From the IMG/VR virus record IMGVR_UViG_3300003666_000032: a stretch of 47,304 nt of DNA; one strand, written 5' to 3'. Both the position numbers and the translations under genes were made by a program. The notes below the pieces were generated by a model. The model was not told where the DNA came from, ran no database searches, and saw nothing but the letters and a program-made list of their open reading frames with translations. Origin of the DNA: a virus. Below, one piece after another: positions 3,179 to 40,402 of this stretch. Numbering within the stretch: position 1 is the stretch's first letter; each line of letters starts with the position of its first letter.

Positions 3179-3384
3179 ACTCTAGCCCCCTCGTTTAATA
3201 TTCTTACCGATTCAATAACCTTATCATCTGTTACCATGCTATTGACTACACATTGTAATAATGATCTGTTATCTTTCTTTATTAATTCACCGTAGAAAGG
3301 ACATTCGGTACATCTTAGATCGCCAGTCTCTACATTGCATATTGCATAAGCTATTAGTGTTTTTAGTGCCTGTTCTTTATCCAT
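3175..3384 (-). CDS. Hypothetical protein (69 aa)
   Basis: ORF with AAAGGGG SD in the operon. Confidence 0.6.
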   Translation of the reverse strand: MDKEQALKTLIAYAICNVETGDLRCTECPFYGELIKKDNRSLLQCVVNSMVTDDKVIESVRILNEGARV

Positions 3385-3404
3385 ACTCTATTTACCCCTT
3401 TCCT

Positions 3405-3581
3405 TTATAATTTCTCACTAGACAACATCTCCTTTACCCATTTGTCTATTTCTTCTTCTAGAAATCGCCACTCCCTTCCAAACTTATAAGCTGGCATACC
3501 TTTTTTAATGTAGTTAAAAACTGTTCTATCTGTAATCTGTAATAATTCACATAATTGCTTCATAGTTAAATATTTTGCCAT
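3405..3581 (-). CDS. Excisionase/MerR-type helix-turn-helix (HTH) protein (58 aa), candidate recombination directionality factor or regulator
   Basis: Product is MAKYLTMKQLCELLQITDRTVFNYIKKGMPAYKFGREWRFLEEEIDKWV, a typical HTH_17/Xis-like motif. GGAGGTG SD. It is below the ORF-track cutoff. Confidence 0.7.
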   Translation of the reverse strand: MAKYLTMKQLCELLQITDRTVFNYIKKGMPAYKFGREWRFLEEEIDKWVKEMLSSEKL

Positions 3582-3599
3582 GTCACACCTCCTGCATCC

Positions 3600-3628
3600 A
3601 TTATACTATATATTCCCGTCAATTGCAA
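3600..3628 (-). promoter_or_regulatory. Candidate promoter of the xis-like operon
   Basis: On the minus strand: TTGCAA (3623-3628), 17 nt, TATAAT (3600-3605). The leader would be very short. Confidence 0.35.
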
Positions 3629-3645
3629 ATATTTCGTACAATTTC

Positions 3646-3675
3646 TTGACAGCATACGCAATTTAGGTATATACT
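3646..3675 (+). promoter_or_regulatory. Candidate promoter of the plus-strand accessory cassette
   Basis: TTGACA (3646-3651), 18 nt, TATACT (3670-3675). Confidence 0.45.
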
Positions 3676-3773
3676 ATTATTAAGTAGTATAGGTTGTAGC
3701 TTAGAGAGAAGATTCTCTATTTAACGTGGCGAATCCTATACTGCTTAGTATAACAATAAGGGGGAATAGAAAA

Positions 3774-4202
3774 ATGAGCAAATTAGATATTGAGAAAATA
3801 ATTGATCAGTTAAAAGAATTTGGATATAAAATCAGATACAAAGAAAATGGAGAGTATGGTTCGGGTTATTACGATATTAAAAATGATTTTATGTATCCTA
3901 ATGAAATACATTTAAAAGATAAGCTAGATAGGTTAGTAGATGCAGAAAAGTATGGTCTTGCAAAGAAACTGTACGATGTTGATGAATGGGGGTATCCTTT
4001 AATAAATGGATTGAAAAATATTATTTCGAACTGTAACTTTTCAACTAGAAATATATCCGAAATAAATGAGGAAACCAAATTAAAAGATATTGTTGGTAAT
4101 AATTATGACGATTTTATTAAAGTAGTTGAGTGTGAATATAGTTTACTCATAAATTGCGAAACGTTAAGTACATTCAATGACTTAATAAGTTTTTTAAAAT
4201 AA
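3774..4202 (+). CDS. Hypothetical protein (142 aa), accessory/moron gene
   Basis: An internal ATG of the 3726 ORF is preceded by AAGGGGGA. It lies on the opposite strand to nearly all phage genes. Confidence 0.55.
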   Translation: MSKLDIEKIIDQLKEFGYKIRYKENGEYGSGYYDIKNDFMYPNEIHLKDKLDRLVDAEKYGLAKKLYDVDEWGYPLINGLKNIISNCNFSTRNISEINEETKLKDIVGNNYDDFIKVVECEYSLLINCETLSTFNDLISFLK

Positions 4203-36133: not shown

Positions 36134-37009
36134 CTATGATGCATAATCATCAAATTTCTCACATGTTCTGAAAATAAATTTATTATTAGTCCATCTAGCA
36201 ATTTTCTTTAATTTCTTTGGTGCTTTTTCTTTATCATAAATCATTACATATGGGTCATATCCAAGATCTTTAAGCTTATAAATTCTATATAAATCGAATT
36301 CTAATTCGGTGTTAAAATTGGTTAATACATATACCCTGAGTTTCCTAAAATCTATGTCCGTTGACTTCTTAAACTGTTCAAGGTTCTTTAATATTAACTC
36401 GCTGTCCTTTTCTCCATCCCATGCAAAGTGAAGCATCTTAAGCTTGAGTTTTACTATCTTTTCAGTTACTTCTTCTGTCATAAAGCGTATGTCAAGCCCT
36501 TGGTTAATGTCTATCCATGTTTTTGACTCAATAAGTTGATCTAGCAATTCAAGTCTATTCTTGCAAGCCAATAAATTTGGGTCTTGCAGTACTATTGTTT
36601 TTTGTCCTTTCCAAAATTGGTCTAAATCTGCAACCTTGTGGCTTATTAATCCTTCTTTTTTTCCTACAATGCAGAAAGGACAATTGCGAGGGCAACCACG
36701 GGTTAAGAATCCGTAAGCTTCTTTGAATTGTGGGTATATAGTGTAGTCAGGACACATATTTTCTATTGCATCAGGCAATTTATTTTCAAGATCGTAACCG
36801 GTACCTCCAAAGATCATTTCTTTGGTATCCACGAAAGTGTCAAAGTCAGGCGTAAATGTAAATACCTTTGCAGCATATACCCTGTCATACTTCATCATAG
36901 GGATGCACCATTCAACATCATTACTGTTCTGCTTCTCCCATGCGGATATTTTCATTAATGCTATATTTGGGTAATTGTGTCCATCCACATCTACTAACCC
37001 TACTTTCAT
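36134..37009 (-). CDS. Radical SAM-domain protein (291 aa)
   Basis: LTRGCPRNCPFC is a CX3CX2C 4Fe-4S/SAM motif. The N-terminal part is Rossmann-like (MKVGLVDVDGHNYPNIALMKISAW). Confidence 0.75.
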   Translation of the reverse strand: MKVGLVDVDGHNYPNIALMKISAWEKQNSNDVEWCIPMMKYDRVYAAKVFTFTPDFDTFVDTKEMIFGGTGYDLENKLPDAIENMCPDYTIYPQFKEAYGFLTRGCPRNCPFCIVGKKEGLISHKVADLDQFWKGQKTIVLQDPNLLACKNRLELLDQLIESKTWIDINQGLDIRFMTEEVTEKIVKLKLKMLHFAWDGEKDSELILKNLEQFKKSTDIDFRKLRVYVLTNFNTELEFDLYRIYKLKDLGYDPYVMIYDKEKAPKKLKKIARWTNNKFIFRTCEKFDDYAS

Positions 37010-38835: not shown

Positions 38836-39948
38836 CTATTTATTTGTTTCTATATCTGCTATTGCTTGTAATATAGGGTATACTTGGGCTGGGACTACCA
38901 TGTTACCTAAACATTTAAGTCTGTCCACCCTATTTTTTATTCCTGTTGCTACTCTTGGTATATCAGGTTCTTTTATCCAATATCCGTCCAAGATTCCGGT
39001 AAACCCATTAACCACTCCACCCAGTTCGGGTTCAACTGTCCGCCTATAACTGAATTGAGTTCCGTCTTTTGCTGAAATCTCTTTGATTCTGGATTCATAT
39101 CTGGCGATTTGTAATCTCTTGTTGTAGGTGTTGGAAACATTTTCACTGCCGCCGATAAATCTGGTGATCTCCTCGTTCTTTCCGAAGGGCAATCCCCTCT
39201 CAAAGATGCTTTCGGTGTTGGCCATAATTTCATTATTTCTGGATTCATACGTTTGTTTATTTCCTCGTTCCACTTCTCCATCGGTACATTGTTTGATTCC
39301 AAACTGGCTTCGATATAAGCCAAATTCATTAATGGATTTACCTGTTCTCTTAGATTCCCCGGTCTTTTTCTGTTCTTCCGGCCTCCGTTTGTTGCTTGAC
39401 GCTTCATTGCTTCGTAACTCCTGCACGGTAGAATATCCATTGTGTTTGGAGTAGCCCACAAAGAATACTCTCTCTCTTCTGTGTTTTGCTCCGACAGCCG
39501 CAGCTTCAAAATTAAATATGAAGACTTCGTAGCCTTGACGCTCCAAGTCCTTGCAAATGTCATCAGCGGCAATTCGCAAGATTCCAGGGACATTCTCACC
39601 AAGTACCCAAGTTGGCTTAATTTCGGAGATAACCCGGAGCATTTGTGGCCACAAGTAACGTTCGTCTTCTTTACCTTTTTGGTTTCCTGCCACGGAAAAT
39701 GGTTGGCAAGGAAATCCTCCTGAAATAAGTCCAACTGTTCGTAACCCTGTTCTATCGTTAAAGCTTTCTGCTGTAATCTCATGTATATCCCTCCATCTTG
39801 GTACATTAGGCCAGTGTTTTTCTAATACTTTAGTTGGGTAGTCTGCCCATTCGCACTGGCCGACTGTTTCGAATCCCGCCCATTCAGCCGCTAAATCAAT
39901 TCCCCCGATGCCACTGAATAATGATAAGTGAGTTAACACTTTTACCAC
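38836..39948 (-). CDS. dcm: DNA (cytosine-5)-methyltransferase
   Basis: Motifs present: I FSGIGG, IV GFPCQPFS, VI ENV, VIII GAKHRRERVFFVGY and X LGNMVVP. The start is GTG at 39948, or GTG at 39939 after AGGTGG. Confidence 0.9.
   Translation of the reverse strand: MVKVLTHLSLFSGIGGIDLAAEWAGFETVGQCEWADYPTKVLEKHWPNVPRWRDIHEITAESFNDRTGLRTVGLISGGFPCQPFSVAGNQKGKEDERYLWPQMLRVISEIKPTWVLGENVPGILRIAADDICKDLERQGYEVFIFNFEAAAVGAKHRRERVFFVGYSKHNGYSTVQELRSNEASSNKRRPEEQKKTGESKRTGKSINEFGLYRSQFGIKQCTDGEVERGNKQTYESRNNEIMANTESIFERGLPFGKNEEITRFIGGSENVSNTYNKRLQIARYESRIKEISAKDGTQFSYRRTVEPELGGVVNGFTGILDGYWIKEPDIPRVATGIKNRVDRLKCLGNMVVPAQVYPILQAIADIETNK
38973..39806 (-). CDS. Overlapping +1-frame ORF inside dcm (WPTP-repeat / EWLMG.P..WT protein)
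   Basis: 277 codons are open in the +1 frame. Motifs are LWATP, LWPTP, MFPTPTTRDYK and LNPNWVEWLMGLPESWT. An internal ATG at 39782 lies 7 nt after GGAGGG. Confidence 0.45.
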   Translation of the reverse strand: MYQDGGIYMRLQQKALTIEQGYEQLDLFQEDFLANHFPWQETKKVKKTNVTCGHKCSGLSPKLSQLGYLVRMSLESCELPLMTFARTWSVKATKSSYLILKLRLSEQNTEEREYSLWATPNTMDILPCRSYEAMKRQATNGGRKNRKRPGNLREQVNPLMNLAYIEASLESNNVPMEKWNEEINKRMNPEIMKLWPTPKASLRGDCPSERTRRSPDLSAAVKMFPTPTTRDYKSPDMNPESKRFQQKTELNSVIGGQLNPNWVEWLMGLPESWTDIG

Positions 39949-39991
39949 CTCACTTTATTTAGGAGTATAGGGGACTATATGTCCCCATATA

Positions 39992-40402
39992 TTAATCTTC
40001 TATAAGCCATTTACCGTTAATCATGCGTTTTATGATAACGCTGTTATACGCAGACACAGCATCTAATGTAACCGATAAATTATTGTAATATTTCAAGCTA
40101 GATGAAACGTTCAAAAACTCATATTTCTCAGGTTCGAACAGCTTAATATCTTTACCACTATTAGCTGCTGTAATAAAATCAACAGGCTTTTGTATAAGTG
40201 TCCATTTGTCCGTTATGTTTCCTTTTGCATACGGATGTGTAGGGTCATGGTGTATTGTGTATTTTTCATTACCTTTGTTTCTTATCCAAACTAAATCACC
40301 ATTTATTAACCCAACCGAAGTTCCACATCTTTGATTTTTAAATTGAAGTTCAGGATTATCCATTATTGCCTGTATCATTTCTGGCGTTGTATACTCTTTC
40401 AT
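39992..40402 (-). CDS. Hypothetical protein (136 aa)
   Basis: ORF with GGAGGGG SD. Confidence 0.65.
   Translation of the reverse strand: MKEYTTPEMIQAIMDNPELQFKNQRCGTSVGLINGDLVWIRNKGNEKYTIHHDPTHPYAKGNITDKWTLIQKPVDFITAANSGKDIKLFEPEKYEFLNVSSSLKYYNNLSVTLDAVSAYNSVIIKRMINGKWLIED

What the first reader, a model, noticed from the sequence alone, without database searches (positions are those of the whole stretch)
38836..39948. 834-nt same-strand overlapping ORF with its own conserved-looking motifs inside the C5 methyltransferase gene
Two long ORFs on the same strand overlap in an AT-rich genome.

Frame A (39948->38836, 370 aa) carries the C5-MTase motifs:
- FSGIGG (39901-39918)
- GFPCQPFS (39694-39717)
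- ENV (39589-39597)
- GAKHRRERVFFVGY (39451-39492)
- LGNMVVP (38890-38907)

Frame B is +1 relative to A (39806->38973, 277 aa) and is not a featureless shadow:
- It has three (W/F)(A/P)TP boxes: LWATP (39447-39461), LWPTP (39213-39227) and MFPTP followed by TTRDYK (39126-39140).
- It ends in LNPNWVEWLMGLPESWT (38985-39035).
- From memory, this pattern belongs to the target-recognition and motif-IX-like parts of phage-encoded cytosine methyltransferases.
- A frame-B ATG at 39782 lies 7 nt after GGAGGG, so B has a plausible independent initiation site.

The two frames complement each other. Between motif VIII and the WIKEPDIPRVA..RVDRLKCLGN tail, frame A encodes about 150 aa of low-complexity hydrophilic sequence, exactly where frame B looks conserved. 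Upstream of that region, the frame-B residues (EDFLA, TCGHKC, RTWSVKAT) are simply the +1 images of conserved frame-A motifs (GGFPC, YLWPQM, KDLERQGY).

Having both frames free of stops over 277 codons is unlikely by chance at this base composition. Three explanations are possible:
- A genuine overprinted gene.
- A +1 recoding event that swaps the specificity domain and yields two MTase isoforms.
- Two compensating indel errors.
Basis: partly seen in the sequence, partly recalled or inferred. Interest (0 to 1): 0.85.

Follow-up and report, generated by a model that had tools for sequence, protein, structure and literature searches.

The report
Two-frame, two-subunit phage cytosine methyltransferase gene
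One stretch of phage DNA is read in two reading frames to make two different proteins that most likely assemble into a single DNA cytosine methyltransferase. The same layout recurs in 118 of the 136 related viral and bacterial loci that could be classified, where gene finders annotate only one of the two proteins.

Summary

- **Frame A** (39948->38836) encodes C5-methyltransferase motifs I-VIII, about 155 residues of unconserved, predicted-disordered filler, and motif X.
- **Frame B** (+1; 39806->38973, probable start ATG 39782 behind GGAGGG) encodes the (W/F)xTP-box target-recognition region and a motif-IX-like box.

Frame B's middle matches 66 phage methyltransferase genes; frame A's middle matches nothing. 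The same nested pair is found in 62/72 classifiable IMG/VR loci and 56/64 classifiable GTDB loci, including Paenibacillus, Salmonella and Acinetobacter phages.

Both frames are open far beyond chance: 0 stops against 7.6-15 expected, 0 of 20,000 shuffles. Frame-A synonymous sites are frozen where they encode conserved frame-B residues. 39 of 52 loci have a Shine-Dalgarno motif ahead of frame B's ATG. Neither junction has a conserved slippery site. Where motif X sits in frame B instead, frame A fills with stops.

Best explanation (about 0.72): a nested two-subunit enzyme of the M.EcoHK31I kind, but with the whole recognition domain in the embedded subunit. Expression and assembly are inferred, not shown.

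The parts
38836..39948 (-). Frame A ORF = alpha subunit (370 aa from GTG 39948; more probably 367 aa from GTG 39939). It consists of the catalytic large domain, a filler and motif X.
   Evidence: ORF list; PF00145 E=7e-41; TIGR00675 dcm E=3e-35; P0121 = this contig's own 367-aa call.
39946..39951 (-). Shine-Dalgarno-like GAGGTG, 6 nt upstream of GTG 39939 (probable alpha start).
   Evidence: Read directly from the sequence; agrees with the 367-aa database call.
39451..39948 (-). Alpha residues 1-166: C5-methyltransferase motifs I (FSGIGG), IV (GFPCQPFS), VI (ENV) and VIII (HRRERVFFVGY). This is the AdoMet-binding and catalytic large domain.
   Evidence: AF2 pLDDT 84-98 over residues 1-170 apart from two short dips. 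Foldseek to M.HaeIII and M.HhaI E~5e-13 over ~170 columns. Profile match to M.HhaI residues 11-174.
38980..39450 (-). Alpha residues 167-323: frame-A filler or tether. Hydrophilic, unconserved, kept free of stops.
   Evidence: No tblastn hit. Alignment consensus is 'x' apart from VADT, the -1 image of WPTP. pLDDT below 50 almost throughout and almost no secondary structure. Pairwise identity 0.24, equal to the third frame's 0.23. 0 stops against 7.6-15 expected.
38836..38979 (-). Alpha residues 324-370 plus stop: conserved C-terminal segment WIKEPDIPRVATGIKNRVDRLKCLGNMVVP... containing motif X. It begins exactly where frame B ends.
   Evidence: Invariant or near-invariant columns W324...P353 in 96 homologues. 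Motif X helix pLDDT 87-92. phrog_32758 match to residues 322-367.
38973..39806 (-). Frame B ORF = beta subunit (277 aa from ATG 39806; probably 269 aa from ATG 39782). +1 relative to frame A and wholly inside the alpha gene.
   Evidence: ORF list. 1,055 homologues at 90% clustering. 40,359 representative clusters at E<=1e-3 and 2,623 at E<=1e-30. phrog_1008 'DNA methyltransferase' E=3e-28.
39789..39794 (-). Shine-Dalgarno-like GGAGGG, 6 nt upstream of frame-B ATG 39782-39780. It is embedded in frame A's conserved W-R-D codons.
   Evidence: Sequence. In 39 of 52 nested loci an SD-like motif precedes frame B's first ATG, against a 17% background.
39462..39782 (-). Beta N-terminal part (~107 aa), overprinted on alpha motifs IV-VIII. 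Mostly a shadow of frame A but kept open and carrying a few selected residues. Predicted as a helix plus beta-hairpin just before the first xTP box.
   Evidence: 0 stops against 4-7 expected. Frame-A synonymous variability 0.60 before the overlap against 0.42 within it, P=2e-7. Frozen codons not explained by stop avoidance. pLDDT 67-77 for residues 52-100. Overall identity no better than the third frame.
39036..39461 (-). Beta target-recognition region: three (W/F)(A/P)TP boxes (LWATP, LWPTP, MFPTP) with a confidently folded helical core after the first box.
   Evidence: tblastn to 66 phage methyltransferase genes. In-frame homologous boxes in collinear actinophage enzymes. pLDDT 81-95 for beta residues 110-180. 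Frame B better conserved than frame A in 240 of 300 locus pairs.
38985..39035 (-). Beta C-terminal box LNPNWVEWLMGLPESWT: motif-IX-like by pattern and by position.
   Evidence: Invariant or near-invariant in 91 homologues. Lies directly upstream of motif X in collinear and AquI-like relatives. No statistical match to motif IX of solved enzymes or to PF00145.

Best explanation
The locus encodes a two-subunit orphan DNA cytosine-5 methyltransferase from two overlapping same-strand reading frames.

- Alpha comes from frame A. It is the catalytic large domain (motifs I-VIII), joined by about 155 residues of unstructured filler to the motif X helix that completes that domain.
- Beta starts independently at an internal SD and ATG (39782) in the +1 frame. 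It supplies what alpha lacks: a target-recognition region built from (W/F)xTP modules and the motif-IX-like box.
- The two chains then assemble into the active enzyme, as shown experimentally for M.EcoHK31I and M.AquI. The enzyme would methylate phage DNA and protect it from host restriction.

What is shown here:
- Both frames are conserved and open beyond chance.
- Each frame is under selection where it carries enzyme parts.
- Frame A's filler is selected only to stay open.
- Frame B has its own start signals.
- The layout is widespread.

What is inferred: that both products are made, that they associate, and that the complex is active.
For: 1. Frame-B middle matches 66 phage methyltransferase genes; frame-A middle matches none.
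2. The layout is conserved in 62/72 classifiable IMG/VR loci and 56/64 classifiable GTDB loci. It is also present in Paenibacillus phage Bloom (both CDSs annotated), phage C75C1, Salmonella phage S9-5 and Acinetobacter phage ABMM1.
3. Openness: in the window, 0 stops against 7.6-15 expected, 0 of 20,000 shuffles. 42 of 46 loci are individually P<0.05. The third frame is full of stops.
4. Natural control: in 6 loci where motif X lies in frame B, frame A carries 5-17 stops between motifs VIII and IX. In L010, where beta is a separate gene, the +1 frame over motifs IV-VIII has stops.
5. Frame-A synonymous sites are less variable inside the overlap (median 0.42 against 0.60, P=2e-7). They are frozen at codons that fix conserved frame-B residues, and this is not explained by stop avoidance.
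6. An SD-like motif precedes frame B's ATG in 39 of 52 loci against a 17% background. The usual form is AAGGAG, 8 nt, then an ATG 44 nt before PCQ. Most database homologues start at the same profile position.
7. Structure models: alpha has a confident large domain and motif X helix with a disordered middle. Beta has a confident core after the first xTP box.
8. Precedent: in M.EcoHK31I beta is encoded entirely within another frame of alpha and both chains are needed for activity. M.AquI is a two-chain enzyme split in the variable region (PMC2836561, PMC3404938).
Against: - There is no expression, proteomic or activity evidence for either product.
- Beta's N-terminal ~100 residues are, overall, no better conserved than the third frame (0.40 against 0.39). 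Why the ORF starts so far upstream is unexplained.
- The motif IX assignment is not statistically supported.
- The beta model has only moderate confidence (mean pLDDT 64) and no structural neighbour in the PDB.
- No complex could be modelled.
- The loci were retrieved by similarity to frame B, which biases the sample towards intact frame B.
Confidence: 0.72

Rival explanations
1. Double programmed ribosomal frameshifting. Ribosomes shift +1 after motif VIII into frame B and -1 after the IX-like box back into frame A, producing one collinear chain (I-VIII, TRD, IX, X) like the actinophage enzymes.
For: A collinear order does exist in relatives: Gordonia phage Leonard and Mycobacterium phage DLane. 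The hypothetical A-B-A chimera still scores PF00145, E=2e-38. The window has an (AG)5 run at 39468-39477 near the first junction.
Against: - Neither junction has a conserved slippery motif. The distance from motif VIII to the first xTP box varies, and so does frame B's stop position.
- The (AG)5 run is unique to the window.
- Frame A does not stop after the supposed shift site; it stays open for ~155 codons against expectation.
- Frame B is open, with its own SD and ATG, ~100 codons upstream of the supposed shift site.
- The AquI-like loci show no prfB-like context at frame A's stop.
- Two shifts in series would give a low yield.
Confidence: 0.1
2. Frame B is entered by a +1 slip, or by a DNA-level T-run length change, at the T4 run inside motif IV (CCA TTT TCC, 39696-39699). 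This gives a fusion of motifs I-IV to the frame-B protein rather than an independently initiated beta.
For: Three independent database clusters (P0071, P0073, and P0093 with 8 members) are exactly such fusions, all joined after GGFPCQPF.
Against: - The fusion would lack motifs VI, VIII and X.
- In L011 the downstream frame-A part is left without a start, so these look like dead alleles at a homopolymer hot spot.
- A conserved SD and ATG sits upstream of this site.
- Only 3 of the best 120 hits are fusions.
Confidence: 0.05
3. Beta is translated but works separately from alpha, for example as a DNA-binding or anti-defence protein. Alpha alone would then be a non-specific or inactive methyltransferase.
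For: Beta has no Pfam, NCBIfam or PDB match. Its N-terminal part has no known counterpart.
Against: - Beta's xTP boxes and IX-like box are homologous to in-frame parts of collinear methyltransferases.
- They are fused to motif X in AquI-like and HNH-split relatives.
- Alpha has no recognition domain of its own.
- The two frames are always found together.
Confidence: 0.07
4. Artefact or decay. Either two compensating sequencing indels, or a recently frameshifted pseudogene whose old frame is still open by chance.
For: Some relatives are clearly decayed by extra indels or deletions: L011, L027, L064 and L085.
Against: - The same two-frame layout is seen in well over 100 independent assemblies at 30-60% protein identity, from isolates and metagenomes.
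- Openness is far beyond chance in both frames.
- There is site-specific synonymous constraint.
Confidence: 0.02

Closest known systems
M.EcoHK31I (E. coli HK31, YGGCCR), a naturally heterodimeric C5 methyltransferase
   Same: [quoted passage not shown] Both chains are needed for activity (PMC2836561, PMC3404938). The window has the same gene topology and the same split of motifs IX and X.
   Different: - EcoHK31I beta is small (61 aa, from memory) and alpha is reported to carry the recognition domain.
- Here beta is 269-277 aa and carries the whole recognition region plus an N-terminal part overprinted on motifs IV-VIII. Alpha's middle is unconserved filler.
- EcoHK31I belongs to a restriction-modification system, whereas this is an orphan phage enzyme.
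- Sequence relatedness to EcoHK31I could not be tested.
M.AquI (CYCGRG), a two-subunit C5 methyltransferase
   Same: The enzyme is split within the variable region into a chain with motifs I-VIII and a chain with the distal recognition region plus motifs IX-X (PMC3404938). Sister loci of the window (L009, L018, L055, L068, L127, L154) have this division, with the second ORF overlapping the first in the +1 frame.
   Different: In the window, motif X is in frame A, not in the second chain. Alpha must therefore read through ~155 codons of filler, and the overlap is ~830 nt rather than short.
Collinear xTP-box methyltransferases of actinophages (Gordonia phage Leonard gp5, Mycobacterium phage DLane gp65)
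   Same: Same building blocks in the same order: motifs I-VIII, repeated (L/W)PTP boxes, IX-like box (LNAAFAEWMMMLPAG), motif X. The boxes are homologous to the window's frame B: 57% identity over 44 aa, E=9e-8.
   Different: All parts lie in one annotated frame. Even there, the +1 frame over motifs VI-VIII and the next ~80 codons reads a beta-like N-terminus with two more xTP boxes.
Phage lambda Rz/Rz1 spanin genes (a gene embedded in another gene)
   Same: [quoted passage not shown] That Rz1 lies in the +1 frame on the same strand, and that the two products form one functional complex, is from my own knowledge of lambda biology.
   Different: The proteins are unrelated and the overlap is much shorter. 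In Rz/Rz1 the embedded gene is not a displaced piece of the same ancestral enzyme.

Membership tests
DNA cytosine-5 methyltransferase (PF00145 / TIGR00675 dcm) | Large-domain motifs I (FxGxG), IV (PCQ), VI (ENV) and VIII (QxRxR-like) on one polypeptide | tested here: met
   Frame A scores PF00145 E=7e-41 and TIGR00675 E=3e-35, above cut-off. The profile matches M.HhaI residues 11-174. The fold matches M.HaeIII and M.HhaI at E~5e-13.
DNA cytosine-5 methyltransferase (PF00145 / TIGR00675 dcm) | Motif X (GNxVxP) after the variable region on the same polypeptide | tested here: met
   LGNMVVP lies in frame A, is invariant across 96 homologues, and forms a confident C-terminal helix.
DNA cytosine-5 methyltransferase (PF00145 / TIGR00675 dcm) | Target-recognition domain and motif IX between motifs VIII and X on the same polypeptide | tested here: not met
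   Frame A's middle has no homologue, is unconserved and is predicted disordered. The homologous recognition region lies in the +1 frame.
M.EcoHK31I-type nested heterodimeric C5 methyltransferase | Second polypeptide encoded entirely inside the first gene in another reading frame | tested here: met
   Frame B (38973-39806) lies within frame A (38836-39948), at +1. This is conserved in 118 of 136 classifiable related loci.
M.EcoHK31I-type nested heterodimeric C5 methyltransferase | Large chain has motifs I-VIII and X; small chain supplies motif IX | tested here: inconclusive
   Motifs I-VIII and X in frame A are confirmed. Frame B's LNPNWVEWLMGLPESWT resembles motif IX and sits just upstream of motif X in collinear relatives. 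It has no significant match to PF00145 or to solved enzymes.
M.EcoHK31I-type nested heterodimeric C5 methyltransferase | Recognition domain on the large (alpha) chain | tested here: not met
   The xTP-box recognition region is in frame B. The corresponding stretch of alpha is filler.
M.EcoHK31I-type nested heterodimeric C5 methyltransferase | Both polypeptides made and required together for methylation | not testable with these tools
   Only indirect evidence: selection on both frames, and an SD and ATG for frame B.
M.EcoHK31I-type nested heterodimeric C5 methyltransferase | Sequence homology to M.EcoHK31I alpha and beta | not tested
   The sequence and the original paper (PMC306636) were not available.
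M.AquI-type split C5 methyltransferase | Second chain carries motifs IX and X | tested here: not met
   In the window, motif X is in frame A. The feature is met only in sister loci L009, L018, L055, L068, L127 and L154.
Programmed ribosomal frameshift gene | Conserved slippery sequence at the frame junction | tested here: not met
   52 loci compared at both junctions show no conserved heptamer or shift-prone codon pair, and junction positions vary. The AquI-like loci show no conserved context at frame A's stop.
Programmed ribosomal frameshift gene | Zero frame closes soon after the shift site; the new frame is not open far upstream of it | tested here: not met
   Frame A stays open ~155 codons past the junction. 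Frame B is open ~115 codons before it. Both are against expectation.
Same-strand overlapping (dual-coding) gene pair | Both frames open beyond chance, reduced synonymous variability in the overlap, independent start signals | tested here: met
   Shuffle tests. Synonymous variability 0.42 against 0.60, P=2e-7, with frozen sites not due to stop avoidance. SD and ATG in 39 of 52 loci against 17% background.

The most novel reading that the evidence does not exclude
The window represents a very large, phylum-spanning class of phage and prophage cytosine methyltransferases that are obligate two-chain enzymes encoded by reciprocal dual coding. Over roughly 0.8-1 kb, each frame alternately carries a functional enzyme part while the other frame carries filler. 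The embedded chain would be a structurally unsolved recognition domain built from a variable number of xTP modules. The nested form may be ancestral to the AquI-like forms and to the actinophage 'single-chain' forms, whose post-VIII linker still reads as xTP boxes in the +1 frame.
Probability: 0.55. Interest if true: 0.8.

Novelty: new variant of a known kind. Interest (0 to 1): 0.72.

Why it matters
- **Annotation.** Gene finders keep only one of two same-strand overlapping ORFs. These loci are therefore annotated either as a methyltransferase with no recognition domain or as a domain-less 'hypothetical protein'. Frame B has no Pfam or NCBIfam model, yet it has 40,359 representative relatives. 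Specificity prediction and methylome interpretation for such phages miss the recognition subunit.
- **Overlapping genes.** At ~830 nt this is a long and very widely conserved same-strand overlap in dsDNA phages. The ancestral and overprinted roles swap between the frames along the gene, and natural controls exist (AquI-like, HNH-split and collinear relatives). It is a tractable system for studying how overlapping genes arise and persist.
- **Enzyme engineering.** Naturally split C5 methyltransferases are platforms for targeted methylation (PMC2836561). This family offers hundreds of natural alpha/beta pairs with modular recognition regions.

Tried and rejected
- Megablast of the gene and of 24 kb of the window against INPHARED phages found no match, so no close relative exists for read-level or near-neutral comparison.
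- Pfam and NCBIfam on frame B found nothing.
- Foldseek of the frame-B model against the PDB gave no match at E<=0.001. The model has moderate confidence and is extended.
- A frame-B profile against PDB sequences found nothing.
- I tried to place the IX-like box on PF00145 through collinear relatives. Pfam sees only motifs I-VIII there. A profile running from the IX-like box to motif X found no methyltransferase in the PDB. The motif IX assignment stays pattern-based.
- The original M.EcoHK31I paper (PMC306636) is not held, so frame, start site and sequence could not be compared.
- The (AG)5 run at 39468-39477 was considered as a slippage or phase-variation site. It was rejected because it is absent from the other 51 loci.
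- L064 and L085 were considered as 'single-chain' forms. They were rejected because they carry extra indels or deletions and leave motif X out of frame.
- Literature searches for a prior description of this architecture in phage C5 methyltransferases found only M.EcoHK31I and M.AquI. The Paenibacillus phage papers list two adjacent cytosine methyltransferase genes without comment.
Full report
**1. The observation**

The window holds two same-strand ORFs on the minus strand.
- Frame A runs 39948->38836 (370 aa).
- Frame B runs 39806->38973 (277 aa) and is +1 relative to A.

Frame A scores PF00145 at E=7e-41 and frame B has no Pfam hit.
- 38890-38907 covers GNMVVP.
- GGAGGG is at 39789-39794, 6 nt before ATG 39782.
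- Frame A probably starts at GTG 39939, behind GAGGTG. This agrees with the 367-aa database entry for this very contig.

I held the conserved frame's protein fixed and shuffled synonymous codons.
- Frame A should carry 7.6-15 stops across the middle. It carries none, and 0 of 20,000 shuffles reach that.
- Frame B should carry 4-7 stops across the upstream 115 codons. It carries none (P=0.0017 and 0.0001).
- The third frame carries 15 and 10 stops, as expected.

**2. Which frame is 'real' where**

tblastn of frame B's middle (LWATP...WTDIG) finds 66 phage records, all under genes annotated as cytosine or DNA methyltransferase. Frame A's middle finds none.

In an alignment of 96 frame-A homologues, residues 1-166 and 324-370 are strongly conserved. 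The middle has no consensus except 'VADT', which is just the -1 image of frame B's WPTP.

For the same middle DNA compared between loci, median protein identity is 0.31 in frame B, 0.24 in frame A and 0.23 in the untranslated third frame. Frame B exceeds frame A in 240 of 300 pairs.

Structure models agree.
- The frame-A model has a confident large domain (pLDDT 84-98 over residues 1-170 apart from two short dips) and a confident motif X helix (87-92).
- Frame-A residues ~174-347 fall below 50 almost throughout and have almost no secondary structure.
- The large domain superposes on M.HaeIII and M.HhaI (E~5e-13, ~170 columns), and the profile matches M.HhaI residues 11-174 only.
- The frame-B model has a confident helical core after the first xTP box (pLDDT 81-95) and a moderately confident helix plus hairpin before it.

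**3. Not an error: the layout is conserved**

Paenibacillus phage Bloom carries the same nested pair, and both CDSs are annotated as cytosine methyltransferase. Translating all frames shows the same arrangement in Bloom and in phage C75C1, in Salmonella P22-like phage S9-5 and in Acinetobacter phage ABMM1.

Frame B has 1,055 homologues in the 90%-clustered protein database. Most are 220-300 aa, cover ~93% of frame B and have no Pfam domain. In their contigs the gene finder chose frame B, yet a complete frame-A methyltransferase ORF spans it.

An exhaustive profile search finds 40,359 representative clusters at E<=1e-3 and 2,623 at E<=1e-30. Most hits begin at the same profile position.

I classified frames in two independent samples of 80 loci each.

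| Sample | Nested | Classifiable | AquI-like |
|---|---|---|---|
| IMG/VR | 62 | 72 | 3 |
| GTDB species genomes | 56 | 64 | 2 |

The GTDB sample comes from at least 517 matching places across Bacillota, Spirochaetota, Chloroflexota, Synergistota, Bacteroidota, Planctomycetota, Proteobacteria and CPR. There was no clean collinear case in either sample. The rest are decayed or ambiguous.

In 42 of 46 nested loci, frame A's openness across the middle is individually improbable (median P=0.004). This holds even under a conservative within-segment permutation.

**4. Natural controls**

- In six loci motif X lies in frame B (L009, L018, L055, L068, L127, L154). There frame A ends within about 15 codons of the end of motif VIII and carries 5-17 stops before the IX box. 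So frame A is open across the middle only when it needs to reach motif X.
- In L010 an HNH endonuclease gene separates a 155-aa gene with motifs I-VIII from a gene carrying the xTP boxes, IX and X in one frame. There the +1 frame over motifs IV-VIII has stops.
- Actinophages Leonard and DLane encode all parts in one annotated frame. Their xTP boxes are homologous to the window's frame B. This ties frame B to the enzyme.

**5. Is frame B's upstream part more than a shadow?**

Overall it is not.

Three things still indicate selection on it:
- It is kept open.
- Frame-A synonymous variability drops from a median of 0.60 before the overlap to 0.42 within it (Mann-Whitney P=2e-7).
- Particular frame-A codons are frozen in a way that fixes conserved frame-B residues, and no alternative codon would create a stop. 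Examples are ACA 37/37 (B=Gln), CCT 25/25 (B=Leu) and GCT 49/50 (B=Leu, 98% conserved). At Val codons, one of the two stop-free choices is used almost exclusively.

One caveat applies. The loci were retrieved by similarity to frame B, and one retrieval pattern lies in this region. The frozen sites listed lie outside that pattern.

**6. How frame B is translated**

In 39 of 52 non-identical nested loci an SD-like motif precedes frame B's first ATG, against a 17% background inside these genes. The usual form is AAGGAG, 8 nt, then an ATG 44 nt before PCQ. The frame-B ORF most often opens exactly 59 nt before PCQ. In the window the equivalent is GGAGGG, 6 nt, then ATG 39782.

Neither junction shows a conserved slippery sequence. 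The spacing from motif VIII to the first xTP box varies, and so does frame B's stop position. The window's (AG)5 run is unique to it.

Independent initiation is therefore the best-supported route. Programmed frameshifting is not supported.

**7. Mechanism proposed**

- Alpha is the catalytic large domain, a tether and the motif X helix.
- Beta is a short N-terminal element, the xTP-module recognition region and the IX-like box.
- Together they would form an orphan methyltransferase. It sits in the replication module of a temperate phage with a serine integrase, portal, terminase and DnaD-like initiator, and presumably protects phage DNA from restriction.

Selection on both frames and the start signals are shown here. 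Synthesis of both chains, their association and their activity are inferred from the M.EcoHK31I and M.AquI precedents.

**8. Comparison with what is known**

M.EcoHK31I has the same gene topology. Its beta is encoded entirely in another frame of alpha. [quoted passage not shown] It differs in that its alpha is reported to hold the recognition domain and its beta is small.

M.AquI corresponds to the minority sister arrangement.

PHROGs already holds a family for frame-B-like proteins (phrog_1008, 'DNA methyltransferase'). The Paenibacillus phage papers list two adjacent cytosine methyltransferase genes without comment. I found no paper in the held library that describes this architecture for phage enzymes. 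Subscription literature and REBASE were not searchable.

My verdict is a new variant of a known kind, and a widespread one.

**9. Limits**

- There are no expression data.
- The motif IX assignment rests on pattern and position only.
- Beta has no structural neighbour in the PDB.
- No complex could be modelled.
- The role of beta's N-terminal part is unexplained.
- The direction of evolution between the nested, AquI-like and collinear forms is unresolved.

Noticed in passing
window 39696-39699 (T4 run in CCA TTT TCC, motif IV); L011:337-1512; proteins P0071, P0073, P0093: Three independent database clusters are in-frame fusions of frame-A motifs I-IV to frame B, all joined right after GGFPCQPF. 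This is consistent with one T fewer in this homopolymer. They are either dead alleles at an indel hot spot or a recurrent switch.
   Followed up: partly
L010:2721-5416 (ERZ27296429 k141_1907178): An HNH endonuclease gene (3193-4023) sits between the motif I-VIII gene and the xTP/IX/X gene. A duplicated motif VIII remnant (VGAWHKRERVWIV) lies in the -1 frame at the start of the downstream gene. This looks like a methyltransferase split by a homing endonuclease.
   Followed up: partly
L093:811-2370 (Gordonia phage Leonard gp5); L094:931-2325 (Mycobacterium phage DLane gp65): In these annotated single-chain enzymes, the +1 frame over motifs VI-VIII and the next ~80 codons reads a beta-like N-terminus (TLPTSGMTRNG...) and two more xTP boxes (LLPTPRATDGTKGGPNQRGSSGDLMLPSAV). 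The annotated post-VIII linker is the -1 image of them. This hints that the collinear form derives from a nested one.
   Followed up: partly
window 38920-39040, frame A: Frame A's C-terminus has two similar segments: EPELGGVVNGFTGILDGYW (the -1 image of the IX-like box) and EPDIPRVATGIKNRVDRLK. In many relatives (for example L006) only one copy exists, and it overlaps the IX box directly. There, two conserved motifs (GWTDLNA* in frame B and RVDRLKCLG in frame A) share the same nucleotides.
   Followed up: partly
window 39970-39986: A perfect 6-bp inverted repeat, GGGGAC-ATATA-GTCCCC, lies between the stop of the upstream ORF (39992-40402) and the methyltransferase start. It has no following T run. 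It could be a terminator-like or regulatory hairpin.
   Followed up: no
window 39468-39477: An (AG)5 dinucleotide run lies inside motif VIII codons (RRER), next to the A-to-B junction. It is not present in the 51 other nested loci.
   Followed up: yes
alignments A1 and A2 (frame-B homologues); L083:475-2211: The number of (W/F/L)xTP modules in frame B varies from about 2 to more than 7 between relatives. Frame A's filler changes length in step. In L083 frame B runs on for ~220 codons past the IX box, with further xTP boxes and an extra C-terminal region.
   Followed up: no
window 36134-37009 (minus strand): A radical SAM domain protein (phrog_9298, E=2e-112) lies about 1.8 kb downstream of the methyltransferase, in the same early/replication module.
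   Followed up: no
L092:1023-1757 (Salmonella phage S9-5); L095:1278-2192 (Acinetobacter phage ABMM1): In these Proteobacteria phages the +1-frame ORF starts at the very beginning of the methyltransferase gene, within a few bases of its start codon (MSWLFSQAL...). It spans nearly the whole gene. Alpha's filler is much shorter in S9-5 (about 40 aa) and about 110 aa in ABMM1.
   Followed up: partly
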